UHGV virus genome: UHGV-0213557
DNA: 56,702 nt
Direction: 5' to 3' (one strand)
From: a virus
The notes under the pieces were generated by a model. It made no database searches and was not told where the DNA came from. It saw nothing but the letters and a program-made list of their open reading frames with translations. Made by a program: the position numbers and the translations under genes. Shown piece after piece: positions 3,832 through 37,631 of the stretch; within the stretch, counting starts at the first letter, position 1; each line of letters starts with the position of its first letter.

Positions 3832-4029
3832 CCCAAAATAAACTTGGCATTTCCAATACCTACACATACGCATCTCTCTCAAATTTGCAGTGAACCATGA
3901 GTAGTGCAATTGATAACATTTATCACACACCCTCAATACCTTGTATTCCAATTGTTAAACTTCAATTTATCGCAAATATTGCTCACTGCAAAATCTCTAC
4001 ATTTTTATTATATCATAAAAATATTATTT

Positions 4030-4170
4030 TTGAATATCTGTACCAATTTGTGGTATAATAAAAGCAAGGAAATAATTTACTTTATACAAGAGTAGCTATT
4101 TCCATCAAAATTGATTTAAAGAATTATTTTTTTAAATCACCCTTATTGGCGTCTGGGTGATTTTTTATTT
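4030..4170 (+). ncRNA. Putative antisense antitoxin sRNA for toxin 4124-4228: promoter TTGAAT-N18-TGgTATAAT (4030-4059), TSS ~4067, terminator hairpin TCACCC..GGGTGA+T7 at 4137-4170
   Basis: Extended -10 and intrinsic terminator on the plus strand overlapping the toxin 3' end. Confidence 0.4.
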
Positions 4171-4228
4171 TGTCATAAATATAAGCTGATATAACACCAG
4201 CTAGTATGCTTAATAAAAAACCTATCAT
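4124..4228 (-). CDS. Type I toxin-like small membrane peptide (34 aa: MIGFLLSILAGVISAYIYDKIKNHPDANKGDLKK)
   Basis: Hand translation; GGAGGTGAAATTAT-ATG RBS; hydrophobic N-terminal helix plus charged tail; convergent antisense promoter and terminator (next feature). Confidence 0.55.
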   Translation of the reverse strand: MIGFLLSILAGVISAYIYDKIKNHPDANKGDLKK

Positions 4229-4494
4229 ATAATTTCACCTCCTTCCTTATTTGGAATTTGGCGTTTAATATGAAAATAATCACCCTTCGCACTTTCGATT
4301 ATTATCCTTGCTACAATTATTATAACATATAATTATTACATATTTTTCCATTTTTTTTATATAAACAATGAAATTCAAGTAAATAAATACCTACTTATTT
4401 ATATATATTTTATAAATTAATTGCTTTATAATCAAGTTTTCAATTTTTTAATAAAAATTTTTATTTTTTATTTTATATAAACAATATTTTTTCT

Positions 4495-4652
4495 AATTTG
4501 TGGTATAATAAAAGCAAGAAGAACTACAATCTATTTTGCGGTAGAGTGAAGTTCATAATTAAATGAATCTATTTGAACTTATGGAACTTGATTTTAAAAT
4601 CAAATTCCCAGCCACTTTTACTCTTGCCACGAGTTGAGTGGCTTTTTACTTT
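4495..4652 (+). ncRNA. Putative antisense antitoxin sRNA for toxin 4569-4730: TGgTATAAT at 4501-4509, terminator AGCCAC..GTGGCT+Ts at ~4609-4652
   Basis: Paralogous to the 4030-4170 unit (shared aatttgtggtataataaaagcaag). Confidence 0.4.
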
Positions 4653-4730
4653 TAGAAATACTTTACAAATTAAGCAAAATATTAAACTAGCAATAACGCC
4701 AGCTATTACATTAAGTAAAAAGTTATTCAT
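4569..4730 (-). CDS. Type I toxin-like peptide (53 aa: MNNFLLNVIAGVIASLIFCLICKVFLKVKSHSTRGKSKSGWEFDFKIKFHKFK)
   Basis: Hand translation; RBS GGAGGTGGGAAGT-ATG; TM helix plus Lys-rich C-terminus. Toxin promoters (TGTTATAAT, minus strand) at ~4318-4330 and ~4819-4831 give ~80-nt 5'UTRs. Confidence 0.6.
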   Translation of the reverse strand: MNNFLLNVIAGVIASLIFCLICKVFLKVKSHSTRGKSKSGWEFDFKIKFHKFK

Positions 4731-4877
4731 ACTTCCCACCTCCTTTCATTAGGAAGTAGGTTTTATCCCAGTATGAACTCCACTCTATAAATTGTAGATT
4801 ACATCTTCTTGCTAAAAATATTATAACATATAATTATTACATATTTTACCTATTCTATATTTATTTTTTTATTTTGC

Positions 4878-4996
4878 TATCTTCTTCGTCCCCTCTTTCT
4901 CTCTCTTTCAGCTTCTTTCATTGCTTCCTCTTCATCTTCTATCTTTATAAGTATTGAGGCGGCTGCTAACGCTCTCTCATTAACTTCTAAATTCAT
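4878..4996 (-). CDS. Small ORF (39 aa, MNLEVNERALAAASILIKIEDEEEAMKEAERERKRGRRR) downstream of the XkdN-like gene
   Basis: Hand translation; no strong RBS. Confidence 0.25.
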
Positions 4997-5070
4997 ATAT
5001 TCACTTGGCTTCCACTTTAATTTTTGAATACAATAATGAGTGATGCTAGCATCAAAATCGCCACCTCTGA

Positions 5071-5511
5071 TTAGTTTTTTGCTTCTTCTACTTTATCCTC
5101 AAAAGATGTATCAAATCCATTGACTTCATTCACTTTTACTGTATAATTGACATACTCACCTGCTGTAAGCATTGTCTTTAATAACTGAGCTTCTCCCATT
5201 ACTCCATAACTATTTTGGAGTTCGGCATCCTTTAAATCTGGAAATACTGTAGATGCTACACATAATTCAGCTACATAACTATTGTAGTCAATTTCACTTG
5301 TATATTGTCCAGTATGCTTACCATTGTTACCAATCACTTTTACTCTTTTAGTACACTTTCTTCTTAGTGCTTCGTCTTCTTCAGATGATAAAACTTTTAA
5401 TTCCCATTCAACTGGTTTCCCTTCTTTATCTAAAAATCTGTTACTCGCTACATATTTTACATTATCAACCTTTATTGCATTTTGACTTAAAAAAGCACTT
5501 AAATTACTCAT
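5071..5511 (-). CDS. XkdN-like tail assembly chaperone
   Basis: Position immediately after sheath and tube in a PBSX-like tail module; 146 aa, acidic. Confidence 0.45.
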   Translation of the reverse strand: MSNLSAFLSQNAIKVDNVKYVASNRFLDKEGKPVEWELKVLSSEEDEALRRKCTKRVKVIGNNGKHTGQYTSEIDYNSYVAELCVASTVFPDLKDAELQNSYGVMGEAQLLKTMLTAGEYVNYTVKVNEVNGFDTSFEDKVEEAKN

Positions 5512-5582
5512 ATTATTCTAATCTCCTTTTATTTTAATTTTTCATATAAAAAATACACATATATAATTTATAAATGTGTATT

Positions 5583-6053
5583 TTACTCCATTCCTGCCAA
5601 TAAATTAAATTTTTCTACTAATTCCCAATCCTCAAAAGTGAAATCCATATCTTCATCTAAATACTCACCATCAGCATCAAATTTAGTAATTATTCCACTG
5701 TCCATATTACAATCTTTAAGTACTACTGTCTGTCTTCCTACAGCAGATGTAGGGTCTTCATTTGTAACTTGTATGTCAAAATAAATATCCTCACCAGTTT
5801 CTTTATATCTGTAAAGTAATTCTCTAAAAATAGAAGTATTATAATGAAATGTTGCACTTCCAGTATTTGTACTCCCAGTTGTTTTATTTCCCTTTGTTGT
5901 TCTTCCTAGAATTGGAACTTCACTTTTATTTTTTTCCATTTTAGCCTCTAAATCTATAGCTTGCATAAAATTATATCTTTTACCTTCTATAGTTATAAAA
6001 CATTCAGCTTTCTTTGCACTAACTGTATCTTTAGCATTTATTGTTTGAGCCAT
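5583..6053 (-). CDS. Tail tube protein (XkdM-like)
   Basis: 156 aa directly downstream of the sheath gene. Confidence 0.65.
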   Translation of the reverse strand: MAQTINAKDTVSAKKAECFITIEGKRYNFMQAIDLEAKMEKNKSEVPILGRTTKGNKTTGSTNTGSATFHYNTSIFRELLYRYKETGEDIYFDIQVTNEDPTSAVGRQTVVLKDCNMDSGIITKFDADGEYLDEDMDFTFEDWELVEKFNLLAGME

Positions 6054-6069
6054 ATTATCACTCTCCTCT

Positions 6070-7380
6070 CTAATTAACTGAAACAGTCATATAAAGCTTA
6101 CTCATAGCATTTATTACCTTAACAGCATCAGATACTATGACAGTTTTCTTATCATTTCCAAGCTCTACACTAACATCATCAGTTTTAAAATCTTCTATTG
6201 CCCTTATATTCTCTAATTCTTTATGGTGTTTAACAACATCATTCCAGAAACTTATTCTTCCTGCCTTATCATTCGGAACTTTACCTAAATACTTTTCATT
6301 AAATAAAGTTGCAATATCATTAGCAATTTGGTCAAGTACTCTAACACTTTGGTTACTTGAAAAATCGTCATTTTTATCATCTGTAAATGATACAAAAGTA
6401 TTTATATCCTCTAACACATGAACTTCATCTCCCACCTTGTGGAATATAAATTTACCAGTTTTTAAAGCTTCTTCAAGTTGTATTTGTGTATAATTAACAT
6501 CAACATCAAACTCACCATCATACTTTTTATTAGTATTAGATTTATTTATATCGCATCCTGCTATAACTCCAGCCGCCCAATAAATTAAACTAGATTCTAC
6601 TAATCCAATATCTTTAATCTTATTTTCTACAGACACTACACCTTCATAATCTGCATCACTTTTCTTATATAGTACTGTTTGAAACTTAGCTCCTACCTTA
6701 TCTCTCATTCTCTTTGTAAATTCTACAAATAAACTTTTAATTTCTGTTGTTGTAGCCAAACATCCTAAAGCATTAAAGCTATAGCTTTCTATTTTATCCA
6801 AGAAAGCTTGGTACTCTGCTCCTGTCACAGCTTCGCCATTAGTTCCACCAGTAAATACAAGTCCTGCACTTGCTTCTAGTGTTGCATCCTTCTTCCAAGT
6901 GATATAGTCATTGTCTTGTAAGTCTGTAATAACCTTTGCTATTTGAGTATCTACCTTCTTATTATCTAAAAGTGTTACAACATCAAACTTAGCATTATCA
7001 TCTATATTTGTTGTAACTGTTACTTTTAAGTCATTTCCTCTGATACCACTATATTTTGCTGTGGCTATAGTACAACTGGCTTTAACGCCTTTATTTAATT
7101 TATAAAAATATCCCAACCTTATATTTTTGAATAAATCTCTCAAACCTTTCAGCTTCTCATGAGTATAATCATATCCAAAATACTTCACTGAATACTTCTC
7201 AAAATCATCACTGGTTACTTGAAATACGTCTTCATCTATGCCCCAATCTAACTCTAAAGGTATTGCAACAATACCTCTATCCGATAATGAACTGGTTGCC
7301 CTCTTAGCTGAGATAAAATTTATATAGCTACCTGGTAATATTTTATTCTGTGTTACAAATGTTCCTCCACCTAACGCCAA
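6070..7380 (-). CDS. Contractile tail sheath protein
   Basis: 436 aa; sheath-like N-terminus; synteny sheath-tube-chaperone. Confidence 0.8.
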   Translation of the reverse strand: MALGGGTFVTQNKILPGSYINFISAKRATSSLSDRGIVAIPLELDWGIDEDVFQVTSDDFEKYSVKYFGYDYTHEKLKGLRDLFKNIRLGYFYKLNKGVKASCTIATAKYSGIRGNDLKVTVTTNIDDNAKFDVVTLLDNKKVDTQIAKVITDLQDNDYITWKKDATLEASAGLVFTGGTNGEAVTGAEYQAFLDKIESYSFNALGCLATTTEIKSLFVEFTKRMRDKVGAKFQTVLYKKSDADYEGVVSVENKIKDIGLVESSLIYWAAGVIAGCDINKSNTNKKYDGEFDVDVNYTQIQLEEALKTGKFIFHKVGDEVHVLEDINTFVSFTDDKNDDFSSNQSVRVLDQIANDIATLFNEKYLGKVPNDKAGRISFWNDVVKHHKELENIRAIEDFKTDDVSVELGNDKKTVIVSDAVKVINAMSKLYMTVSVN

Positions 7381-22315: not shown

Positions 22316-23167
22316 CTAGTTAATATTTGATAAAATATGTGCTATCACATCTATTGTCCAACCATCACCTATGACATTTTGTGCTTGTCTTATACTCAAA
22401 CCTTTTGTATATCCAACTGGTAGCGTCTGCGCTAACTCTAATTCTCTAGTTGTTAAGTATCTGCAGAAAGACCCAAATTCTACTAAACCTGAATTACTAA
22501 ATCTATCTTGTTTTAATGTTACGCAGTTTATTTTGTCTTCATATGTTACATTCTTACAATTTCCATTTAAACCATTACCCCACATTTTTTCTCTACTTGG
22601 AGTTTTTTTAATTTCAAACTCTTTGCAATAATCAAAACTAGTATCTTTATAATCTTGAAAACTAATTTTTAAATCTTTAGGTTGTTGAACATTTAAAATA
22701 TTTGTCCAATATAATCTGTCTCTATTTTGATAACTAACTAAATTGCTATTTATCTTGATTGGTTCAACTCCTAACAATTGGCTTATCATGTTTTCATCTT
22801 TTTTGGGCATCACTACGTTTTCTAAAAGAAAATATTCTGGATTCAATTGTTTTAGAATTCTTATATATTCCCAAAACAAATTACTTTTATCTCCAGTTAA
22901 TCCATCCTGTATTTTATTAGCTATTAATCTTCCTTTACTTAAATTTTGGCATGGGCTTCCGCCAATAAGAATATCTACTTTAGGGATTTTACTTACATTT
23001 AGCTCTCTTACATCTCCAAGTTGTATTGTTTTTGGGTAATTATTCATTGCTACTTTAATCGCAATCTCTTTTATTTCACTTGCAAAATAATTTTCTACTT
23101 TTATTCTAGCTCTCTCAAAAGCAACTTGACCACAACTAATTCCATCGAATAGACTTAATACATTCAT
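22316..23167 (-). CDS. DNA (cytosine-5)-methyltransferase, orphan
   Basis: LSLFDGISCGQ (motif I), GGSPCQNLS (PC motif IV), ENV (motif VI). Confidence 0.85.
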   Translation of the reverse strand: MNVLSLFDGISCGQVAFERARIKVENYFASEIKEIAIKVAMNNYPKTIQLGDVRELNVSKIPKVDILIGGSPCQNLSKGRLIANKIQDGLTGDKSNLFWEYIRILKQLNPEYFLLENVVMPKKDENMISQLLGVEPIKINSNLVSYQNRDRLYWTNILNVQQPKDLKISFQDYKDTSFDYCKEFEIKKTPSREKMWGNGLNGNCKNVTYEDKINCVTLKQDRFSNSGLVEFGSFCRYLTTRELELAQTLPVGYTKGLSIRQAQNVIGDGWTIDVIAHILSNIN

Positions 23168-29800: not shown

Positions 29801-30592
29801 TTAATTTTTGCTTAAATCACTTGATATTCCATATTTTAAAGCCATATCTTTTACAATAGCAACATACCCTTCTATGAGTTTCTTATCATCTTGTATTACA
29901 TCTAAATTGTTAACTTTCTCTCTTTTAGATTCAGATACACCTTCTTCTGCCATTTTTCTTCTTTTATTGATCAATCTTCTATGTAGGTCAACTCCAAATC
30001 TCTTATTTAATAATTCATAACTTTCTGTTCTAAGCATATTTATATGTTCAAAACCACCTTGTTTTTTTGCTATTCTTGCAATTAGTTGATGTGTATTTGT
30101 TCTCCAACTATTTGAGTCTAATGAAACTACATCTTTTATTGTTTCAACCTCTGTCTTTGCTTCTAAAGCAATGCTATTTGCTTGATTAACTTGAAGTCTT
30201 AAATCTTTCATTTCTTTTAAACTTTCTATTAATACATCTTCTATACAAGTTGGCTTATGTTGCTTAACTTTGAAATATGTTTCCTCTAAATTATCAAACT
30301 GTTCCCAAGCCTTATCTGTATCTAATATTTTGCAGTGTCTATTTGCTCCTCTTTCAGTCCAAAGATACATTTTTGAAGCAAATTTTAGGTTTTCATATTC
30401 TGTATGAATGCCTTTAAAATTCTTTAAATCATCACCTTGCAATAAAAAATAATGTTTACCTTCAATAAACTTATCTTTGTTATTGTTGAAATTGTTACTT
30501 ATATTTCTTGAGTCAGTTTCATATACATCTGCTAATTGTTGTGTAGTTAGAACTCTCTCATTATTTCTTTCTATTACTTGTAAGTTATTCAT
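29801..30592 (-). CDS. Antirepressor (ORF6N-like)
   Basis: ..RVLTTQQLADVYETDSRNISNNFNNNKDKFIEGKHYF.. Confidence 0.6.
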   Translation of the reverse strand: MNNLQVIERNNERVLTTQQLADVYETDSRNISNNFNNNKDKFIEGKHYFLLQGDDLKNFKGIHTEYENLKFASKMYLWTERGANRHCKILDTDKAWEQFDNLEETYFKVKQHKPTCIEDVLIESLKEMKDLRLQVNQANSIALEAKTEVETIKDVVSLDSNSWRTNTHQLIARIAKKQGGFEHINMLRTESYELLNKRFGVDLHRRLINKRRKMAEEGVSESKREKVNNLDVIQDDKKLIEGYVAIVKDMALKYGISSDLSKN

Positions 30593-31257: not shown

Positions 31258-32070
31258 CTAACATAACATTGAAGTTTGATAACTATACTCTTTTTCTATA
31301 TCTGGTAATATGTTATTTACTTTTAATAAGTCATATAAAAACAATCTTCCCTTTTGAGTCCACTTAGTTGTCATTTTTACATCAGTCATTCCATCACTTC
31401 TAGTTATGTCTATTGTTTCTGAATGAGTGTATCCCTTCCCTTGGTGTTGTTTATATAAAAGCCATTGTCCACTTTGTTTATATTGAATCCCTCTTTCATG
31501 AAGTATTTTATTCATTTCTTTTCCACTCATTCCATAGTCTTTTGCTATTTGAGTTATTGTGACAAGTCCTTTGTTTTTAAGTATCATATCTGTATAATCT
31601 GCCTTTGGTTTTAGTTCTTTTATTACTTGGTCTTTCATTTTTCCTTCTAGTTGTAATTTCTCATTTACTTCTACTTGCTCTATAAGATGTTGTAATGCTT
31701 CTTTATATGTAGTTGGTAGTTTAGGTTGTTCATTTTTTAATACTTGCTCCATTTCTTCAAATTTTTTTGTATATATTCCTGTAAATGCCGTACCTTTTAT
31801 GCCTGTCATTTTATTTGCTATGAAGTCACAACCTATCTTTGTTATTGCATAGCATGGCTTCTCTCTTTTATAATCATCTAAATAAGTATTTTCAATAAAA
31901 TAATCAGATGGGTACAAATCTGTACTCATGTTTTTATTGGCTTCTTCCATTTGGTTTATATAATTTCTTATATCCCTTAGTAAAATCTTGTGTTCTTTTT
32001 CAACCATTAGAGCTATATCTCTACTGTCAGTTGTTAGTTTATTATTAACTTTTACTATTTTTAAATCTTT
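31258..32070 (-). CDS. Antirepressor (Rha-like + AntA/KilA-C); the ORF track's upstream extension to 32151 is unlikely
   Basis: ..TTYKEALQHL.. paralog of 28007-28801. Confidence 0.6.
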   Translation of the reverse strand, partial: KDLKIVKVNNKLTTDSRDIALMVEKEHKILLRDIRNYINQMEEANKNMSTDLYPSDYFIENTYLDDYKREKPCYAITKIGCDFIANKMTGIKGTAFTGIYTKKFEEMEQVLKNEQPKLPTTYKEALQHLIEQVEVNEKLQLEGKMKDQVIKELKPKADYTDMILKNKGLVTITQIAKDYGMSGKEMNKILHERGIQYKQSGQWLLYKQHQGKGYTHSETIDITRSDGMTDVKMTTKWTQKGRLFLYDLLKVNNILPDIEKEYSYQTSMLC

Positions 32071-32075
32071 CATAT

Positions 32076-32297
32076 TTAACTCCTCTCTTTTAAACAACAT
32101 CTTGTTGTATTTGTATTTAAAAAAATTTTTTCTATTGATACTCCAAAACATTTAGATAATTTTATTGCTATTGCTAAACTTGGTACTCTTGTTCCACTTT
32201 CAATCATTCCATAATAACTAGTAGTTATACCTACTTTTAATGCAACATCTTTTTGCTTTAAATTCCTTTCTGTCCTAAGTTCCTTTAGATTGTTCAA
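32076..32297 (-). CDS. XRE-family HTH regulator (Cro-like)
   Basis: ..LKQKDVALKVGITTSYYGMIESGTRVPS.. Confidence 0.7.
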   Translation of the reverse strand: MNNLKELRTERNLKQKDVALKVGITTSYYGMIESGTRVPSLAIAIKLSKCFGVSIEKIFLNTNTTRCCLKERS

Positions 32298-32449
32298 GCT
32301 ATATCCTCCTTACCAACATTTTGTTGTTTATACTTATATAATACACAACTATATGTTGTTTGTAAATAGTTTTTTTATTTTTTTATTTCATTTTACAACT
32401 ATTTGTTGTATTATTTAATAAAGGCAACTTTATTAAGAGGAGTGATTAT

Positions 32450-33013
32450 ATGAGCATTTTATCAGATAGATTGAAATTTCTTAGGAAAGAAAAAGGTGTA
32501 ATGCAAAAAGAAATTGCCAACTATCTTAACATAACTACTAGTGCATATGGATTTTATGAACAAGGTAAAAGAACACCTACCCCAGAAATGTTATCTAGTT
32601 TAGCTGAATATTTTGGCACTACTGTTGATTATTTAATAGGTAGGTATGATAATAAAGCAAGCAATATTTCTAGCAAAACTTCTTGTAATAATACATTATT
32701 TCAAAAAAGACTAAAAGAACTTAGAGCTGAAAAAAATATGACTCAAGAAGATGTTGCAAATAAATTAAACTTAACCAAAAGCGCTTATGGTTATTATGAA
32801 CAAGGAAAGACAGTTCCTGATGCTTATATGCTATCTAGCCTTGCTGAAATATTTAATGTGACTACTGATTATTTATTAGGTAGGTCTATTGTAAAAAATG
32901 ATATAGACACTGTAGCTGCACATAGAGTTAATCCTCACAAAGATTTACCAGAGGAAGCTCAAGAACAACTCAATGATTATATTGAATTTTTAATAAATAA
33001 GTATAAAAAATAA
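32450..33013 (+). CDS. Tandem double XRE-HTH protein; likely lysogeny repressor (ImmR/CI-like)
   Basis: Two HTH_XRE units (..MQKEIANYLNITTSAYGFYEQGKRTP.. and ..TQEDVANKLNLTKSAYGYYEQGKTVP..); divergent from the Cro-like 32076-32297. Confidence 0.65.
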   Translation: MSILSDRLKFLRKEKGVMQKEIANYLNITTSAYGFYEQGKRTPTPEMLSSLAEYFGTTVDYLIGRYDNKASNISSKTSCNNTLFQKRLKELRAEKNMTQEDVANKLNLTKSAYGYYEQGKTVPDAYMLSSLAEIFNVTTDYLLGRSIVKNDIDTVAAHRVNPHKDLPEEAQEQLNDYIEFLINKYKK

Positions 33014-33036
33014 ATTAAAAGTAGGTGATAAATTAT

Positions 33037-34626
33037 ATGAAATCTATAATATCAGATGTCATAAACCGATTTAATGCTACACCATTTTTATTTGTTGGTT
33101 CTGGTTTAACTAGAAGATACTATAATCTTCCAAATTGGGAGGATTTACTAAAAGTCTTTGCAGAAAAAATTAGTAATGATGACTTTATATATACAAGTTA
33201 TAAAAATAAAGCAAAATCAGAGAACCCAAAAATGGGTATAAATCCTAGAATTGCAGAACTTATTGAAAATGATTTTAATAAAAAATGGTTTTCAGATTCT
33301 TCTATACGAAGCTTAGACTCTAAGTATTTAGATATTGTTAAATCAGGAGTTTCTCCATTTAAGGCAGAAATTGCTATGTATATTAAAAATAATTCTAAAA
33401 TAGTAGATAAATATCAAGATGAAGTTGAAAAACTTAGTAATATCTCTAAAAAAAGTTTATCAGGATTTATTACAACAAATTATGATTGTTTTTTGGAAAC
33501 TATCGTTGATAATTATACAACATATATAGGTCAAGAAAATTTAGTTTTTTCATCTATACAAGGTATTGCAGAAATTTATAAAATTCATGGATGTGTTTCT
33601 TCTCCAAATAGTATTGTAATAAATGAAGCTGATTATATAGACTTTGACAGCAAAAGTGCCTACTTGGCAGCTAAGCTAATGACTATATTTGTTGAGTTTC
33701 CTATCATATTTATTGGTTACTCTGTTACAGATGTAAATATAAAAAAAATACTTAATGCTATAGTTAATTGTCTATCTAATGAAAATGCTAAAAAACTCGA
33801 GGAACGTTTCATATTCATTGAGTATGAAAAAAACTTTAATGATATAGAAATATCAAGTCATACAATTGTTTTTGATAATAAAATGATTACTATGACTAAA
33901 ATTAAACTGGAGGATTTTAATTTACTCTATGAGGCATTATCTGAAAAAAAATCAAAATTACCAGTTAGAATATTAAGAATGTTCAAACAAGAATTTTACG
34001 ATTTCACAATTACTAACAAACCTACTGCTAAAATTCGGGTTGGTAGTGTTGATGATACAAGAATAAAAGATGAAGATTTAGTTTTAGCAGTTGGCAAGGC
34101 AAGTGATTTTGGTCTTAAAGGATTAAAAGGATTAAGTTTTGATGAATGGTATCGTGATATAGTCATGAATGACTTAGAATTTTCATCAGATGAATTACTT
34201 GAATATGCTTATCCATCTTTAATTAAGCAATATAATAAATTACCATTAAATAAACATCTTTTTAATAGCACACTTGAATTTCCAGATTATAGGACAATTG
34301 CACTAGAAAGTGACTTTGAAAATATTATTAGCAATAGTATTAAAAAAAATAGAAATAATACTTACATAAAAAATAGAAGTGTTTATGGTATTTGGAATGA
34401 TGAACATCAATCATTTGAAAAAGCTACAAGACTTATTGCTTTTTTAGAAGAAAAAGAAATTGACACTGAACAGTTAGAAAATCTACTTAAGAAAATATTT
34501 GAGGAAAATCCTAATATTTTAGAGTCTGCAAAAACAAGCGAAAAAACAAATTTAAGAAGGCTTATTAGAATATATGACTACATGAAATACTCTAATATGC
34601 AAAAGAGTCTTGGTTATAGTGAGTAA
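33037..34626 (+). CDS. SIR2_2-family NADase-like domain protein with a ~250-aa C-terminal domain of unknown function
   Basis: PFLFVGSGLTRRYYNLPNWEDLL (as in ThsA AIFAGAGLS...W..LL), ITTNYDCFLE (TTNYD), IYKIHGC (His motif). Start placed at the ATG after GTAGGTGA. Confidence 0.7.
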   Translation: MKSIISDVINRFNATPFLFVGSGLTRRYYNLPNWEDLLKVFAEKISNDDFIYTSYKNKAKSENPKMGINPRIAELIENDFNKKWFSDSSIRSLDSKYLDIVKSGVSPFKAEIAMYIKNNSKIVDKYQDEVEKLSNISKKSLSGFITTNYDCFLETIVDNYTTYIGQENLVFSSIQGIAEIYKIHGCVSSPNSIVINEADYIDFDSKSAYLAAKLMTIFVEFPIIFIGYSVTDVNIKKILNAIVNCLSNENAKKLEERFIFIEYEKNFNDIEISSHTIVFDNKMITMTKIKLEDFNLLYEALSEKKSKLPVRILRMFKQEFYDFTITNKPTAKIRVGSVDDTRIKDEDLVLAVGKASDFGLKGLKGLSFDEWYRDIVMNDLEFSSDELLEYAYPSLIKQYNKLPLNKHLFNSTLEFPDYRTIALESDFENIISNSIKKNRNNTYIKNRSVYGIWNDEHQSFEKATRLIAFLEEKEIDTEQLENLLKKIFEENPNILESAKTSEKTNLRRLIRIYDYMKYSNMQKSLGYSE

Positions 34627-34817
34627 AACTCTACCCACCGCTCCAAAACTCCTTTAATCGCTTTAAGCACAAATACAAATTTAGTGCTAACTATACTAAC
34701 ACACATTTGTAAGTGCTTACATATATTATATGTAATTATATTATAATCATATACTATAATCCATATTTTGTCTACAGCTAAAATTATCCAATCTTTTTTG
34801 GATAAAAAATGAATATT

Positions 34818-34850
34818 TAGAGCAGTTCACACCTGCTCTTTATATATAAC
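34818..34850 (+). terminator. Terminator AGAGCAG ttcacac CTGCTCT + T-rich after the SIR2 gene
   Basis: Perfect 7-bp stem; paralogous hairpin at 35566-35595. Confidence 0.5.
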
Positions 34851-34888
34851 AAAAATCAAAAATACATTCTTTTTATAGGGGGATTTCA

Positions 34889-35395
34889 ATGAACAAACTA
34901 GACGCACTTTTAGACTTAGCAAATAATGAAGAGATAGAAATTTACTACACTGACAAAATAGCAGATGACATAAAAGGATTGTATATAAACAGACAAGGAC
35001 TAAAAATTATATCATTACTTAATTCATTAAAACAAAACAATGCTAAACTAATAGAAATCTTAGCAGAAGAATTAGGACATCATTTTACCAGTGTTGGAAA
35101 CTATGTATCTTCAAAAAACAGTTACAAAAATAAAATCTTGATAGACAAAACTGAAAACAAAGCACTAAAATGGGCATGTGAATTTCTTATAACAGAAGAA
35201 GAAATAATACATGTTATTAATTCACACGCTACAAGTGTATACGAAATAGCTGAAGAATTACAAGTTAGCATCAACTTCTTACTAAAAAGATTAGAATTTC
35301 TATCAAAAAAGAAAAGCATGTTGGACTTAGGAAATAATAGATTTTTAGTATTAACTAATTTGCCAAATTTCTACATATATGAGGATATTTTTTAA
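34889..35395 (+). CDS. ImmA/IrrE-like metallopeptidase (atypical EELGHH motif)
   Basis: ..ILAEELGHHFTSVG..; position between repressor and integrase. Confidence 0.45.
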   Translation: MNKLDALLDLANNEEIEIYYTDKIADDIKGLYINRQGLKIISLLNSLKQNNAKLIEILAEELGHHFTSVGNYVSSKNSYKNKILIDKTENKALKWACEFLITEEEIIHVINSHATSVYEIAEELQVSINFLLKRLEFLSKKKSMLDLGNNRFLVLTNLPNFYIYEDIF

Positions 35396-35634
35396 ACTCA
35401 TTTATTCTACTTTTATAGATTTTTTACTTAATAAATATATATTTCAATATTATTATAATAAACTACACATAAAAGCTAAAAAATTGTAAGAATATTAAGA
35501 AAATAATTAAGTAAAAACCAAATAAACAAAATTAAGATAATATTGTACATAACAAAAGTATATAAAGAGCAGTTAATCTGCTCTTTTATATAAACACCAA
35601 ACAAACATACATTCTAAAAGGGAGGGATACTATT

Positions 35635-36765
35635 ATGAAAGGTGGAGTAAGAAAAAGAAGTAACAAATGGTATTACTACTTTGACCTAGGCATAGTAGAA
35701 GGAAAAAGAAAAAAAGTAGAAAGAGTTGGAGGCAATACTAAAAAAGAAGCAGAAAAAGCCTTAAGAGAAGCACTAAATGAATATGAAAACTCTGGCATAG
35801 TATTTGAAGAAAGCAATATCAGTTTATCAGACTACTTAGACTTTTGGTACAAAGAATATGTCTTACTTAACTGTAAATACAACACTCAAGAAAGCTACCG
35901 AATAAACATAGAAAAACATATAAAGCCAAAACTAGGAGCTTACAAAGTAAAAGCTTTAACTCCTGCAATACTACAAAACTTCATAAACAGAAAGTACAAA
36001 GAGGATTACTCTCAAAATACATTACAAGTATTAAAAGCCATATTACATAGGTCATTAAAATCAGCAGTCCATCCTTACAAACATATACGAGAAAACCCTA
36101 TGCAATATGTGAGCATACCAAAAACTAAATCTAAAACAGAAACTAATAAAATTAAAACTATTACATTAGAAGAATTTAATCAAATACTAAATATATTTCC
36201 TCAAGATTCATTTCAACGTATAGTTTTACTAATTGGATTTCATACTGGTATGCGAAGAGGTGAAATTATTGCACTAAAATGGGATAATATAGACCTTGAT
36301 AATAAAACTATCACAGTAAGACATACTTTGATTAAAAAACCAAATGGAATGTTTGAATTAGGGCAACCAAAAACAGAAAGCTCTTGCAGAACTATATTTA
36401 CAGGTGACACTTTAATAAAGGCATTAAAAGAACATAAATTATATCAAAAGAAAATGAAATTAAAATATGGAGAATTTTACTTTGATAGTGACTGGGTATG
36501 TACCAAAGAAAATGGTCAACAAGTGAATACTCACACTTTAGACACTATAGTAAGACAAATTCGAGTAGCTTTAAACAATGACTTCCATTTTCATTCTTTA
36601 AGACATGCACATGCTACTCTATTATTAGAAAATGGTGCTAACATTAAAGACATACAAAACCGTTTGGGCCATAGCCAACTATCAACTACAATGGATACCT
36701 ATTCACATGTAACTGATAAAATGAAAAATGAAACTGTAGATATATTTGAAAAAATTACAAATTAG
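35635..36765 (+). CDS. int: Tyrosine integrase (site-specific recombinase)
   Basis: ..LIGFHTGMRRGEIIALKWDNID.. / ..HSLRHAHATLLLENGANIKDIQNRLGHSQLSTTMDTYSHV.. (R..HxxR..Y). Confidence 0.9.
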   Translation: MKGGVRKRSNKWYYYFDLGIVEGKRKKVERVGGNTKKEAEKALREALNEYENSGIVFEESNISLSDYLDFWYKEYVLLNCKYNTQESYRINIEKHIKPKLGAYKVKALTPAILQNFINRKYKEDYSQNTLQVLKAILHRSLKSAVHPYKHIRENPMQYVSIPKTKSKTETNKIKTITLEEFNQILNIFPQDSFQRIVLLIGFHTGMRRGEIIALKWDNIDLDNKTITVRHTLIKKPNGMFELGQPKTESSCRTIFTGDTLIKALKEHKLYQKKMKLKYGEFYFDSDWVCTKENGQQVNTHTLDTIVRQIRVALNNDFHFHSLRHAHATLLLENGANIKDIQNRLGHSQLSTTMDTYSHVTDKMKNETVDIFEKITN

Positions 36766-37140
36766 AGTTTGCCACCCAAAAATATAATACGGTGGCAAAT
36801 GGGTGGCAAAATCTAATTTATCTATTTTAAAAGCTAAAATTATCAAATTTATATAATCATCTATATACTTGTAATTTCAAGGCTTTAGAGTATATAACAA
36901 CCATAACTAATATAAGGTATTAATAATAAATCTAACAAATAAAACTTAATATTTACTTAAGTTGTAATATTATTCTAGGTTATTTGTTTATTGTTGTTAT
37001 TTTTTACAAGTGTTGGTATTTCAATGTTTTATTAAGGTCAGTTTTGTTGTTTATGTTTTATTATGTTTAATTTAAATTTATTCTATTATTTATTTTCGGT
37101 GGCAAAAGGGTGGCAAGTTTGGTTTTGCCACCCTTATTTT
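36766..37140. other. attP-like region with integrase arm-type repeats GGTGGCAAA / TTTGCCACCC
   Basis: tttgccaccc 36770; cggtggcaaatgggtggcaaa 36791-36811; cggtggcaaaagggtggcaag 37097-37118; ttttgccaccc 37125-37135. Confidence 0.45.
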
Positions 37141-37257
37141 TATTTGTAAAAAAATATAGTTTGTCAATATAACTTTATTGAAAAATATGGAAATAAATAT
37201 CGCTTTTGCCGGTTCGGCATATTATAATATAAATATAGAAAGGGGGTGAAAAGGAAA

Positions 37258-37386
37258 ATGAGTAGAATAGAAAGAAGAAAAAAAGATAGAGAAAGCAAAC
37301 TCGCCAAAGTTAAAACTGCTCTCTCTATCTTACCCATTTTAATAAATTTAATTGATAAACTAATTAAATTATTAAAAGATTTATAG
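37258..37386 (+). CDS. Small peptide (42 aa: basic N-terminus, amphipathic/hydrophobic C-terminus)
   Basis: AAAGGGGGTGA RBS; MSRIERRKKDRESKLAKVKTALSILPILINLIDKLIKLLKDL; hairpin ctaggaagaa..ttcttcctag follows. Confidence 0.4.
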   Translation: MSRIERRKKDRESKLAKVKTALSILPILINLIDKLIKLLKDL

Positions 37387-37462
37387 TTTTGTAAGCTAGG
37401 AAGAATTTAATCTTCTTCCTAGTGACTTCTTTCTAAATATTATAACACATTTTCTATAAAAT

Positions 37463-37630
37463 ATGAGTGATAAAGTTTATAAATTCTGTCTTATTATAGT
37501 TGCTATAACTATAGTAATAGACATAATACTTTTATTTTTACATTTTAATATCAACAATATAATAGGATTAATAGTAAGCATTTTATTGTTAATATTTGTT
37601 ACATTACAATATAAAAAAGGAGGAAAATAG
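37463..37630 (+). CDS. Small two-TM membrane protein (55 aa)
   Basis: MSDKVYKFCLIIVAITIVIDIILLFLHFNINNIIGLIVSILLLIFVTLQYKKGGK. Confidence 0.4.
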   Translation: MSDKVYKFCLIIVAITIVIDIILLFLHFNINNIIGLIVSILLLIFVTLQYKKGGK

Positions 37631-37631
37631 T

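What the first reader, a model, noticed from the sequence alone, without database searches (positions are those of the whole stretch)
32450..35600. Double-HTH repressor - SIR2-domain protein - ImmA-like peptidase in the lysogeny operon; candidate defense/abortive-infection module
The plus-strand lysogeny transcript encodes (i) an unusual tandem-HTH_XRE protein, (ii) a 529-aa protein whose N-terminal ~280 aa carry SIR2_2 (ThsA-like) NADase motifs (GSGLT..NLPNWEDLL, TTNYD, IYKIHGC) with an unclassified ~250-aa C-terminal domain, then a hairpin terminator, (iii) an ImmA-like metallopeptidase with an atypical EELGHH motif, and then int. SIR2 NADases are effectors in Thoeris, DSR and SIR2-HerA defenses, but there is no TIR, HerA or pAgo partner here. 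That leaves either a single-gene SIR2-sensor fusion or one controlled by the HTH/ImmA pair. The intergenic regions upstream of immA and int are paralogous (agagcag..ctgctctttatata.aac..catacattct..), pointing to a cassette insertion.
Basis: partly seen in the sequence, partly recalled or inferred. Interest (0 to 1): 0.8.

Follow-up and report, generated by a model that had tools for sequence, protein, structure and literature searches.

The report
Prophage SIR2 defence-candidate gene cassette
A Clostridioides difficile phage carries, wedged into its lysogeny operon, a stand-alone SIR2 (NAD-degrading type) gene of a widespread but untested candidate anti-phage family (PADLOC PDC-S25); the neighbouring repressor, ImmA-like protease and integrase are the phage's own switch, not partners of the SIR2 gene.

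Summary
On the + strand lie a tandem-HTH repressor (32450-33013), a 529-aa SIR2 protein (33037-34626), an ImmA-like M78 peptidase with EELGHH (34889-35395) and a tyrosine integrase (35635-36765). The paralogous hairpin leaders before immA and int are real.

The SIR2 protein is not new. It matches PADLOC candidate family PDC-S25 (E 3e-154) and PHROG 2695 (E 2e-201) over its full length, and is 99% identical to an annotated C. difficile protein.

Phage comparison shows a 1.79-kb cargo cassette (33014-34801). phiCD24-1, phiCDKH01 and phiCDKH02 lack it but keep immA-int at about 98% identity. Relatives in genomes have no recurrent neighbour. Relatives in viral contigs usually sit just upstream of a recombinase. 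This favours the single-gene reading and argues against a dedicated HTH/ImmA/SIR2 system.

The catalytic Asn and His are invariant. The C-terminal ~230 aa form a family-specific all-helical domain, neither SLOG nor Macro.

The most likely function is an NAD+-depleting abortive-infection protein expressed from the lysogenic transcript. That is inferred: I found no experimental test of the family.

Verdict: new member of a known but unvalidated kind; moderate-to-low interest.

The parts
31258..32297 (-). Start of the lytic operon: Cro-like single-HTH gene (32297-32076) and Rha/KilAC antirepressor (32151-31258)
   Evidence: Pfam HTH_3 E 1.7e-17; ANT E 3.6e-39 and Phage_pRha E 4.2e-21
32298..32449 (.). 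Divergent switch region with operator-like palindromes ACAAC-N5-GTTGT at 32313, 32345 and 32395 (a fourth lies at 32094)
   Evidence: 7 matches in the window against 1.5 expected; 0 of 100 shuffles reach 7; 4 of the 7 cluster here
32450..33013 (+). Tandem-HTH (XRE/RstR-type) repressor, 187 aa; an internally duplicated HTH plus a conserved C-terminal tail
   Evidence: Pfam HTH_3 in two stretches; NCBIfam phage_RstR 127 bits against cut-off 80; halves 58% identical; tail shared with the single- and double-HTH paralogues of phiCD24-1, phiCDKH01 and L004
32852..33013 (+). Repressor-tail repeat: left recombination boundary of the cargo slot
   Evidence: Matches the 3' ends of the repressor-type HTH genes in L001, L002 and L003. 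Present twice in L004, flanking its second HTH gene, so the window equals L004 minus that gene
33014..34801 (+). SIR2 cargo cassette (1.79 kb: gene plus 175-nt 3' region), absent from phiCD24-1, phiCDKH01 and phiCDKH02
   Evidence: blastn finds no counterpart in L001-L003, while the flanks match at 86-99%. The same cassette is 97-98% identical in L004-L006 and encodes an identical protein in six IMG/VR contigs
33037..34626 (+). SIR2 protein, 529 aa, PADLOC PDC-S25 / PHROG 2695. SIR2 domain is about residues 1-295 (33037-33921). Catalytic Asn148 is at 33478-33480 and His184 at 33586-33588
   Evidence: PDC-S25 E 3.1e-154 over residues 5-523; phrog_2695 E 2e-201; SIR2_2 E 1.6e-22; G21, G23, N148, D150, H184 invariant in 41 sequences; His184 aligns with KomC His146; Foldseek finds KomC, ThsA and DSR2 SIR2 domains
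34024..34116 (+). Residues 330-360: conserved segment that AlphaFold cannot place
   Evidence: pLDDT 41-53 but 62% mean identity, followed by invariant L360, G362, L363, G365, W371
34117..34623 (+). Family-specific all-helical C-terminal domain (residues ~361-529), the presumed sensor or regulatory domain
34802..34888 (+). immA leader with terminator-like palindrome 34819-34839; right boundary of the cargo slot
   Evidence: Homology with phiCD24-1 resumes at 34802; terminator scan; -12.1 kcal/mol, z -5.6; alignment A7
34889..35395 (+). ImmA/IrrE-like M78 peptidase, 168 aa, motif EELGHH at 35066-35083
   Evidence: Peptidase_M78; phrog_87. In 32 homologues E61, G63, H64, T67, E89, A92 and W95 are invariant; position 60 is Glu in most and His (canonical HELGH) in a minority
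35549..35634 (+). int leader, paralogue of the immA leader, palindrome 35566-35584
   Evidence: -14.5 kcal/mol, z -5.9. In phiCDKH02 a ~113-nt copy of 35584-35697 flanks a HipA+HIRAN cassette
35635..36765 (+). Tyrosine integrase, 376 aa
   Evidence: Phage_integrase E 2e-31, Phage_int_SAM_3, Arm-DNA-bind_4; phrog_1

Best explanation
The window is a phiC2/phiCDKH02-like temperate C. difficile phage genome. Its lysogeny operon is the usual Firmicute ImmR-ImmA-Int type: a repressor (here a tandem HTH), an M78 anti-repressor protease, and an integrase.

Between the repressor and immA lies a variable cargo slot. In this phage the slot holds one self-contained 1.79-kb cassette encoding a 529-aa SIR2 protein of the PDC-S25 / PHROG 2695 family. 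The protein works alone.

Proposed mechanism, in order:
1. The gene starts 23 nt after the repressor stop, with its own ribosome-binding site and no terminator in between. It is therefore made in the lysogen from the lysogenic transcript (inferred).
2. The N-terminal SIRim-type SIR2 domain is held inactive.
3. The conserved 330-360 segment plus the helical C-terminal domain detect a cue from an infecting phage, most likely a phage protein, as in DSR2 (inferred by analogy).
4. Activation lets Asn148 and His184 hydrolyse NAD+. This starves the infected cell and aborts the superinfection, protecting the lysogen population and hence the prophage (inferred).
5. The terminator-like hairpins in the paralogous immA and int leaders probably limit read-through into immA and int. 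Together with the repeated repressor tail, they are the homologous junctions at which cargo cassettes are swapped.

Shown: the identities of the genes, family membership, cassette boundaries, lack of a conserved partner, and the position preference next to recombinases. Inferred: NADase activity, the trigger, the abortive-infection outcome, co-transcription, and the role of the hairpins.
For: **Family and catalytic residues**
- Full-length matches to PDC-S25 and PHROG 2695.
- More than 1,500 homologues, the best 120 mostly about 515-545 aa.
- The catalytic N and H and the GxG motif are invariant.
- His184 aligns with the KomC His that was mutated to Asn in the NADase-dead structure 9xvc.
- The nearest folds are the defence NADases KomC, ThsA and DSR2.
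- Only 3 Cys, so no sirtuin zinc tetrad. This fits the immune 'SIRim' clade described in 10.1101/2024.09.18.613514.

**Cassette**
- immA-int is about 98% identical in three phages without SIR2.
- a second C. difficile prophage has HTH-HTH-SIR2-ImmA.

**No conserved partner**
- Four genomic contexts all differ. Three sit beside defence-type genes: a DUF1156 methylase with a PLD/SNF2 helicase, ThsB-TIR with a ThsA-Macro protein, and an HD dGTPase-like protein with AAA_21.
- Among 140 neighbours in 35 genomes, no family recurs more than 6 times. The hits include type I and type IV restriction enzymes, Cas3, McrBC, Mza, mad and PbeA models.

**Prophage position**
- 139 viral loci encode relatives.
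- In 48 of 80 the viral contig ends less than 5 kb downstream, most often 1.4-2.5 kb.
- The first two downstream ORFs include 29 tyrosine and 10 serine recombinases. The first two upstream ORFs include 21 HTH_3, 20 M78 and 6 S24.

**Fixed architecture**
- The C-terminal domain was seen only in this architecture among the best 150 of 699 clusters.
Against: - I found no experimental evidence for any member. 'PDC-S25' occurs in only two held papers; the one I read mentions it only as a PADLOC prediction.
- NADase activity, the trigger and the abortive-infection phenotype are all inferred from relatives that share only the ~125-residue SIR2 core.
- The C-terminal domain has no informative structural match, so its sensor role is a guess.
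- The 330-360 segment is unmodelled.
- Co-transcription with the repressor is not shown.
- It is unknown how the phage would avoid triggering its own SIR2 protein on induction.
- About a quarter of viral loci do have HTH/M78 genes upstream, which alone cannot separate 'lysogeny-module position' from 'functional coupling'.
Confidence: 0.65

Rival explanations
1. A dedicated three-gene system: the tandem-HTH protein and the ImmA-like peptidase are regulators of the SIR2 effector, as CapH/CapP are for CBASS. A damage or infection signal would make ImmA cleave the HTH protein and unleash SIR2.
For: The three genes are adjacent and co-oriented. The HTH protein scores on the PADLOC capH model, E 2.3e-25. 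In other phages HTH and M78 genes are common within two ORFs upstream of SIR2 relatives (21 and 20 of 144 ORFs). A weak form, in which SIR2 level simply follows the activity of the lysogenic promoter, is compatible with the best explanation.
Against: HTH-ImmA-Int exists at about 98% identity without SIR2 in phiCD24-1 and phiCDKH02. The slot holds unrelated cargo in phiCDKH01. The HTH protein matches the phage repressor family RstR above cut-off, and operator-like palindromes sit in the divergent region facing a Cro-like gene. The capH hit is generic XRE-HTH similarity, and the ImmA-like protein has no CapP hit. Genomic relatives lack both genes: 2 M78 and 3 HTH_3 among 140 neighbours. Gene order and repressor/recombinase type vary among phages.
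Confidence: 0.1
2. The SIR2 protein serves the phage's own life cycle rather than defence. Examples: an NAD+-sensing or protein-modifying (deacylase or ADP-ribosyltransferase) regulator of the lysis-lysogeny decision, or a toxin that stabilises the prophage.
For: It lies inside the lysogeny operon, next to the switch. The same position recurs in many temperate phages. Classical sirtuins modify proteins.
Against: It lacks the zinc-binding Cys tetrad of protein-deacylating sirtuins (criterion from 10.1101/2024.09.18.613514). Close relatives are frequent outside prophages, beside restriction, Cas3, Thoeris-like and other defence genes. Sister phages do without it, so it is accessory to the switch. 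By established knowledge, the repressor-integrase interval is a classic site for superinfection-exclusion and defence cargo in Firmicute phages.
Confidence: 0.1
3. An anti-defence or counter-signalling enzyme: the phage uses the SIR2 fold to destroy a host immune nucleotide signal or otherwise blunt host immunity.
For: Phages do encode enzymes against NAD-derived immune signals (established knowledge). The protein is phage-borne and the ligand of its C-terminal domain is unknown.
Against: It would be expressed from the lysogenic rather than the early lytic operon. The same architecture is common in chromosomal defence-type neighbourhoods. PADLOC lists it as a defence candidate. No similarity to known anti-defence folds was seen.
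Confidence: 0.05
4. A decaying or inactive passenger gene with no current function.
For: It is accessory and absent from sister phages. A truncated 312-aa version exists in some C. difficile records (P0021).
Against: The ORF is intact with a good ribosome-binding site. The encoded protein is identical in six viral contigs and 99% identical in a cluster of 82 sequences. There are 88 invariant columns, including all catalytic residues, across sequences down to 53% identity.
Confidence: 0.03

Closest known systems
PADLOC phage-defence-candidate family PDC-S25 (= PHROG 2695, 'unknown function')
   Same: Full-length profile match (E 3.1e-154 over 5-523 of 529 aa; PHROG E 2e-201). Same size, same single-gene architecture, same kind of neighbourhood.
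   Different: Nothing structural: this is a member. The family is only a computational candidate, and I found no test of it.
DSR2 (defence-associated sirtuin 2, Bacillus subtilis)
   Same: A single polypeptide with an N-terminal SIRim-type SIR2 NADase domain and an all-helical C-terminal region. Conserved catalytic Asn and His. Foldseek and HMM matches to the DSR2 SIR2 domain. DSR2's C-terminal region binds the phage tail tube, according to the titles of PDB entries 8wya and 8xff listed.
Thoeris ThsA
   Same: SIR2 core similarity (PADLOC ThsA1 E 9e-17 over residues 125-255; PDB 6lhx and 8bto).
   Different: No SLOG or Macro ligand-binding domain. No ThsB/TIR gene in the window and none recurring next to relatives.
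KomC, SIR2 NADase of the KomABC (Kongming) system
   Same: Best sequence and fold match among solved structures (E 3.3e-15; Foldseek E 4e-8, TM 0.66 on the target). His184 aligns with catalytic His146.
   Different: KomC is a bare 264-aa SIR2 domain that works in a complex with KomB and dITP, according to the PDB titles. Here there is an extra C-terminal domain and no partner genes.
ImmR/ImmA/Int lysogeny module (ICEBs1, phi105-type) and its defence-regulating cousins CapH/CapP
   Same: Co-oriented XRE-HTH repressor, M78 peptidase and integrase facing a Cro-like gene and an antirepressor.
   Different: The repressor is a tandem HTH. The peptidase clade has EExxH instead of HExxH. A cargo gene separates repressor and peptidase. 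Cleavage was not tested.
Cargo ('moron') hot spots between repressor and integrase in temperate Firmicute phages (for example the Tha system of S. aureus prophages, PMC11087260; lactococcal and streptococcal sie/ltp genes, from established knowledge)
   Same: An accessory gene expressed in the lysogen, in a variable slot bounded by conserved sequence, with different cargo in sister phages.
   Different: Here the junctions can be named: a 162-nt repressor-tail repeat and about 90-nt paralogous hairpin leaders.

Membership tests
PADLOC PDC-S25 / PHROG 2695 | Full-length match to the family profile | tested here: met
   PDLC04968 E 3.1e-154, residues 5-523 on profile 8-515 of 517; phrog_2695 E 2e-201, 4-523 on 2-530 of 531
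PADLOC PDC-S25 / PHROG 2695 | Single-gene system with no obligatory partner | tested here: met
   No neighbour family recurs in more than 6 of 140 flanking ORFs in 35 genomes. Four individually inspected contexts all differ.
PADLOC PDC-S25 / PHROG 2695 | Demonstrated anti-phage activity | not testable with these tools
   No experimental report in the held literature
SIR2_2 / 'SIRim' immune NADase domain | Pfam SIR2_2 above the gathering score | tested here: met
   80.6 bits against 24.5
SIR2_2 / 'SIRim' immune NADase domain | Catalytic Asn (TTNYD) and His (KIHG) plus the GxG NAD-binding loop conserved | tested here: met
   G21, G23, N148, D150, H184 invariant in 41 sequences. H184 aligns with KomC H146.
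SIR2_2 / 'SIRim' immune NADase domain | No sirtuin zinc-binding Cys tetrad | tested here: met
   Only Cys151, Cys186 and Cys245; criterion from 10.1101/2024.09.18.613514
SIR2_2 / 'SIRim' immune NADase domain | NAD+ hydrolysis | not testable with these tools
   Needs an enzyme assay
Thoeris (ThsA + ThsB) | SLOG or Macro signal-binding domain fused to SIR2 | tested here: not met
   No Pfam domain beyond SIR2_2. The C-terminal model matches only generic helical solenoids.
Thoeris (ThsA + ThsB) | Adjacent TIR-domain ThsB gene | tested here: not met
   The neighbours are HTH, M78 and integrase genes. No TIR model appears among the 25 families listed (47 matched at E <= 1e-6) for the other 62 ORFs of the window, so a single weak hit cannot be excluded.
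DSR1 / DSR2 | Match to DSR profiles; protein of about 1000 aa with a long C-terminal sensor region | tested here: not met
   No DSR model among the PADLOC hits at E <= 0.01. The protein is 529 aa. PDB DSR2 similarity is limited to residues 141-241.
SIR2-HerA and SIR2-pAgo systems | HerA helicase or short pAgo/APAZ partner gene | tested here: not met
   Absent from the flanks, from the families listed for the rest of the window, and from the recurrent neighbours of relatives
AbiH (sirtuin-like lactococcal Abi) | Match to the AbiH profile | tested here: not met
   No AbiH model among the PADLOC hits. The sirtuin-like nature of AbiH comes from PMC13064643.
ImmR/ImmA/Int lysogeny module | Co-oriented XRE-HTH repressor, M78 peptidase and integrase, divergent from a Cro-like gene | tested here: met
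   the same module occurs in phiCD24-1 and phiCDKH02
ImmR/ImmA/Int lysogeny module | HEXXH zinc site in the peptidase | tested here: inconclusive
   E60-E61-x-x-H64. Glu61, His64 and Glu89 are invariant, but the first His is Glu in most clade members and His in a minority.
ImmR/ImmA/Int lysogeny module | Peptidase cleaves the repressor on induction | not testable with these tools
   Needs biochemistry or genetics
CapH/CapP defence regulators | HTH plus M78 pair dedicated to a defence operon, found with it across genomes | tested here: not met
   The capH hit is generic HTH similarity, and the ImmA-like protein has no CapP hit. The pair is absent from genomic relatives and present in SIR2-less phages.

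The most novel reading that the evidence does not exclude
PDC-S25 may be a compact, DSR2-like one-protein sensor-effector. In this reading the family-specific helical C-terminal domain, with the conserved but unmodelled 330-360 segment, binds a conserved phage structural or replication protein and switches on NAD+ hydrolysis. In temperate phages the gene is repeatedly wired into the lysogenic transcript just upstream of int. Its dose would then be tied to repressor status, which could be how the prophage avoids killing itself on induction.
Probability: 0.3. Interest if true: 0.55.

Novelty: new member of a known kind. Interest (0 to 1): 0.33.

Why it matters
- **The family is widespread but untested.** PDC-S25 relatives appear in at least 333 species-representative genomes and 139 viral contigs in pattern-limited scans. 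They occur in gut Bacillota, a methanogen and Bilophila.
- **It could add a compact SIR2 architecture.** If the family is a real NAD+-depleting defence, it adds a roughly 520-aa single-protein form with a new sensor domain.
- **It bears on C. difficile phage work.** A prophage-borne abortive-infection gene would affect superinfection, phage typing and phage therapy.
- **The locus makes cargo exchange visible.** The conserved junctions at which sister phages swap cargo can be named: a repeated repressor tail and paralogous hairpin leaders. This gives a practical way to mine C. difficile phages for further cargo genes.
- **It is not a new kind of system.** The gene is already annotated as a SIR2 family protein and catalogued as a defence candidate.

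Tried and rejected
1. **SLOG, Macro or another known sensor in the C-terminal half: rejected.**
   - Pfam has no hit there.
   - A PDB profile search finds only SIR2 cores.
   - BFVD gives E >= 0.4.
2. **C-terminal domain shuffled onto other effectors: not seen.** That would have argued for a modular sensor. Among the best 150 of 699 clusters it occupies the same position of ~520-540-aa proteins or occurs in shorter proteins consistent with fragments. The 654-aa outlier still has SIR2_2; a 617-aa outlier (P0250) has no Pfam hit.
3. **afdb50 fold library:** not available.
4. **Structured RNA in the intergenic regions:** Rfam gives nothing credible.
5. **Solved relatives of the ImmA-like protein:** the sequence search gives only spurious I-CreI matches at E > 0.006.
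6. **Literature on PDC-S25, prophage SIR2 genes and C. difficile defence:** no functional study of the family found.
7. **Leader paralogy as a footprint of the SIR2 insertion: rejected.** Both leaders are present in SIR2-less phiCD24-1.
8. **GTG 33025 as start codon: rejected in favour of ATG 33037.** The GTG lies inside the ribosome-binding site.
9. **The window as an integrated prophage with host flanks: rejected.** 38582-56702 encodes tail and lysis genes 95% identical to phiCDKH02, so the window is a whole phage genome.

Full report
**1. What is in the sequence**

Four co-oriented + strand ORFs occupy 32450-36765.

- **Repressor, 32450-33013 (187 aa).** It has two XRE-type HTH domains (Pfam HTH_3 E 2.2e-30, two stretches). 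The halves are 58% identical to each other, so this is an internal duplication. It exceeds the NCBIfam cut-off for the phage repressor family RstR (127 bits against 80).
- **Switch region.** The repressor faces a Cro-like HTH gene (32297-32076) and a Rha/KilAC antirepressor on the other strand. The interval and its edge hold four ACAAC-N5-GTTGT palindromes. The window has 7 matches against 1.5 expected, and none of 100 shuffles reaches 7.
- **SIR2 ORF.** It is listed from GTG 33025. That GTG lies inside an AGGTGA ribosome-binding site that serves ATG 33037.
- **Quoted motifs.** All are present. Pfam SIR2_2 scores 80.6 bits against a cut-off of 24.5.
- **Peptidase, 34889-35395.** An M78 (ImmA/IrrE) peptidase (PHROG 87, E 1e-33).
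- **Integrase, 35635-36765.** A tyrosine integrase with arm-binding and SAM-like domains.

The window as a whole is a phage genome, not a prophage with host flanks. Positions 38582-56702 encode tape measure, baseplate, tail fibre and endolysin genes 95% identical to phiCDKH02.

**2. The SIR2 protein belongs to a catalogued but untested family**

It matches the PADLOC 'phage defence candidate' model PDC-S25 end to end (E 3.1e-154). It also matches PHROG 2695, 'unknown function' (E 2e-201).

ThsA models match only the SIR2 core, residues 125-255 (E 9e-17). No DSR, HerA-associated, pAgo-associated or AbiH model appears.

The family is large:

| Search | Result |
|---|---|
| Protein homologues at E <= 1e-3 | more than 1,500 (best 120 mostly ~515-545 aa) |
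| Species-representative genomes (pattern-limited scan) | 333 |
| Viral contigs (pattern-limited scan) | 139 |

Hosts are mostly gut Bacillota, plus a Methanosarcinaceae archaeon, Bilophila and others.

In 41 aligned members (53-69% identical to the query), 88 columns are invariant. They include G21, G23, R27, T146-T147-N148, D150, H184-G185 and G227-Y228-S229.

- His184 aligns with KomC His146. That residue is changed to Asn in the KomC(H146N) complex structure with NAD fragments (9xvc).
- The protein has only three cysteines, so it has no sirtuin zinc site.
- These features place it in the immune 'SIRim' branch of SIR2 proteins as defined by Bonhomme et al. (10.1101/2024.09.18.613514).

'PDC-S25' occurs in only two held papers. 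The one I read mentions it only as a PADLOC prediction in an E. coli O157 strain. Other searches found no functional study.

**3. Structure**

An AlphaFold2 model built with the 41-sequence alignment has mean pLDDT 83. It has three parts:

- a SIR2 Rossmann domain with a helical insertion, residues about 1-295, then helices to about 326;
- a segment at 330-360 with pLDDT 41-53;
- an all-helical domain from about 361 to 529, pLDDT 85-95.

Foldseek against the PDB returns only SIR2 domains of defence NADases: KomC, ThsA and DSR2.

I modelled residues 296-529 separately (pLDDT 80).

- BFVD gives nothing.
- The domain is therefore neither SLOG nor Macro. It is a small helical-repeat-like domain specific to this family.

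A profile of this half, run against 1.84 billion cluster representatives, finds 699 clusters. In the best 150 listed, the domain occupies residues about 295-525 of proteins of about 520-540 aa or occurs in shorter proteins consistent with fragments. A 654-aa outlier still carries SIR2_2, while a 617-aa outlier (P0250) has no Pfam hit. The architecture looks fixed, not modular.

The 330-360 segment is puzzling. It is as conserved as the catalytic core (62% mean identity) and is followed by invariant L360, G362, L363, G365 and W371. It is not a floppy linker, and it may fold only in an oligomer or on binding a trigger.

**4. It is a cargo cassette, and its neighbours are the phage's own switch**

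Megablast finds three C. difficile phages about 98% identical over immA-int but covering only 45-49% of the 5.2-kb query. Their annotations and a blastn map define the gap.

- Window 33014-34801 has no counterpart in any of the three.
- Homology to the left ends at the 3' end of the repressor gene, 32852-33013.
- Homology to the right resumes at 34802, 87 nt before immA.

The same slot holds different cargo in each relative:

| Phage or locus | Content of the repressor-immA slot |
|---|---|
| Window | SIR2 cassette |
| phiCD24-1, phiCDKH02 | a second, 182-aa tandem-HTH gene |
| phiCDKH01 | three small hypothetical genes |
| L004 (another C. difficile genome) | second tandem-HTH gene, then SIR2 (order HTH-HTH-SIR2-ImmA) |

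In L004 the 162-nt repressor tail occurs twice, flanking the second HTH gene. The window equals L004 minus that gene.

All these repressor paralogues, whether single- or double-HTH, share the same C-terminal tail. That tail is therefore a ready substrate for homologous recombination.

phiCDKH02 has a second slot, between immA and int, carrying HipA-domain and HIRAN genes. A direct duplication of about 113 nt, corresponding to window 35584-35697, flanks that cassette.

**5. Is there a partner?**

*Genomic relatives.* Four relatives inspected individually lie in four different neighbourhoods:

- beside a DUF1156 methylase and a PLD/SNF2 helicase;
- beside ThsB-TIR, ThsA-Macro and DUF4062 genes;
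- beside an HD dGTPase-like gene and an AAA_21 gene;
- among housekeeping genes in the archaeon.

I then took the two ORFs on each side (each at least 100 aa) in 35 genomes, 140 ORFs in all.

- No PADLOC or Pfam family occurs more than six times.
- The hits include PbeA, mad3/8, type IV and type I restriction enzymes, Cas3, McrBC, MzaA and PDC-S07.
- Only 2 are Peptidase_M78, 3 are HTH_3 and 2 are integrases.
- I had no matched control, so this shows the absence of a conserved partner and the presence of defence-type neighbours. It is not a formal enrichment test.

*Viral relatives.*

- In 48 of 80 loci the viral contig ends less than 5 kb downstream of the gene, most often 1.4-2.5 kb. Only 13 end that close upstream.
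- The first two downstream ORFs in 68 non-redundant loci include 29 tyrosine integrases and 10 serine recombinases, but only 3 M78 peptidases.
- The first two upstream ORFs include 21 HTH_3, 20 M78 and 6 S24 (LexA/CI-type) proteins.

The family is therefore a recurrent passenger of lysogeny modules. It usually sits between ImmA, or a CI-like repressor, and the recombinase. Here it sits between repressor and ImmA. Variable order, variable repressor type and absence of these genes around chromosomal copies all argue against a dedicated HTH/ImmA/SIR2 system.

Among the other 62 ORFs of the window, no TIR, HerA or pAgo model appears among the 25 PADLOC families listed (47 matched at E <= 1e-6), so weak single hits cannot be excluded.

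**6. The ImmA-like peptidase and the leaders**

*Peptidase.* In 32 homologues E61, G63, H64, T67, E89, A92 and W95 are invariant. Position 60, the first His of HEXXH, is Glu in most and His (HELGHY) in a minority. EExxH is thus a conserved clade variant rather than decay. Whether Glu60 or His65 binds the metal is open.

*Leaders.* The ~90-nt leaders of immA (34802-34888) and int (35549-34) are paralogous in every relative that has them (alignment A7; pattern search).

- Each has an extended palindrome. In the int copy it reads TATATAAAGAGCAG-loop-CTGCTCTTTTATATA.
- The terminator scan flagged the immA copy on the + strand and the int copy on the - strand.
- They fold at -12.1 and -14.5 kcal/mol, z about -5.7.

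Because the paralogy exists in SIR2-less phiCD24-1, it is not a footprint of the SIR2 insertion. I read the hairpins as read-through attenuators that keep immA and int low in lysogens. Together with the repressor tail, they are the conserved junctions where cargo is exchanged. Both roles are inferred.

**7. Most likely mechanism**

- *Shown:* gene identities, family membership, catalytic-residue conservation, cassette boundaries, lack of a conserved partner, and position bias next to recombinases.
- *Inferred:*
  1. The gene is co-transcribed with the repressor (23-nt gap, own ribosome-binding site, no terminator) and so is present in lysogens.
  2. The SIR2 domain is latent until the conserved 330-360 segment and helical C-terminal domain sense an infection cue, probably a phage protein, by analogy with DSR2.
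  3. Asn148 and His184 then hydrolyse NAD+ and abort the superinfection.

I put this at 0.65. The rivals are:

| Rival | Confidence |
|---|---|
| Dedicated three-gene regulated system | 0.10 |
| Role in the phage's own switch or maintenance | 0.10 |
| Anti-defence enzyme | 0.05 |
| Inactive passenger | 0.03 |

**8. Comparison and verdict**

- *Membership.* The protein is a member of PDC-S25 / PHROG 2695 and of the SIRim-type SIR2_2 domain family.
- *Analogy.* It works, by inference, like DSR2: one protein, with a SIR2 effector and a helical sensor.
- *Not a DSR2.* It is half the size, has no DSR profile hit, and its C-terminal domain is unrelated at detectable level.
- *Not Thoeris, SIR2-HerA, SIR2-pAgo or AbiH.*
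- *The surrounding genes.* They form an ImmR/ImmA/Int-type module with two local peculiarities: a tandem HTH and an EExxH site.

The finding is a correct and careful annotation of a plausible defence cargo gene. The gene and its family are already catalogued and the architecture is simple. It is a new member of a known, still unvalidated kind. Interest is 0.33. It would rise if the family were shown to be a compact DSR2-like sensor-effector with a new trigger domain.

Noticed in passing
window 41966-42838 (- strand): An AbiD/AbiF-like abortive-infection gene is split into two ORFs. 42838-42503 matches PADLOC AbiD profile positions 3-105 (E 3e-36) and 42319-41966 matches positions 169-275 (E 6e-31). 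About 60 profile positions are missing between them. Relatives annotate 'AbiF-like protein (x2)'.
   Followed up: partly
window 38582-40981 (- strand): A 799-aa protein with three CWB2 cell-wall-binding repeats and leucine-rich repeats lies next to the endolysin (41075-41887). It is a candidate lysogenic-conversion surface protein carried by the phage.
   Followed up: partly
window 22316-23167 (- strand): An orphan C5 cytosine DNA methyltransferase, 283 aa. PDB matches to DNMT3A and M.HaeIII reach E 2e-22, and PADLOC MTase models reach E 2.4e-29. It probably protects the phage against restriction.
   Followed up: partly
window 37246-37808 and 37999-38541 (+ strand): A tandemly duplicated triplet of tiny genes lies just after int. 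Each copy has a K/R-rich peptide with a hydrophobic tail (42-46 aa), a two-TM-like peptide (51-55 aa), and an AbrB/MazE-like protein (61-70 aa; MazE_antitoxin E 5.6e-4). Similar copies occur in phiCD24-1 and phiCDKH01. Function unknown.
   Followed up: no
window 36750-37140: A cluster of direct and inverted GGGTGGCAAA-type repeats starts at the int stop codon and ends in a strong terminator-like hairpin (37106-37135, 12 pairs). These may be attP or arm sites.
   Followed up: no
L003 (phiCDKH02) 3980-6140: A second cargo slot lies between immA and int. It carries HipA-domain and HIRAN-domain genes and is flanked by a direct duplication of about 113 nt that includes the first 63 nt of int (window 35584-35697).
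   Followed up: partly
window 34024-34116 (SIR2 residues 330-360): This segment has very low AlphaFold confidence in two independent models, yet its conservation equals that of the catalytic core. It is followed by the invariant motif L-x-G-L-x-G...W. It may be an oligomerisation or trigger-binding element.
   Followed up: partly
window 35066-35083 (ImmA-like residues 60-65): The whole clade of this M78 peptidase has E-E-L-G-H, with Glu in place of the first zinc-binding His. A minority of homologues keep H-E-L-G-H-Y.
   Followed up: partly
L009-L012, about 5177-5995 (locus coordinates of L009): In one gut lineage a 272-aa ORF with no Pfam hit ends 6 nt before the SIR2 relative. The pair lies next to ThsB-TIR, ThsA-Macro and DUF4062 genes. 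This may be a lineage-specific partner or simply a packed defence island.
   Followed up: no
window 29801-30592 (- strand): A 263-aa early-region protein gives weak hits to PADLOC candidate PDC-S05 (E 2.6e-8). This is probably generic similarity of an antirepressor or ORF6N-like domain.
   Followed up: no
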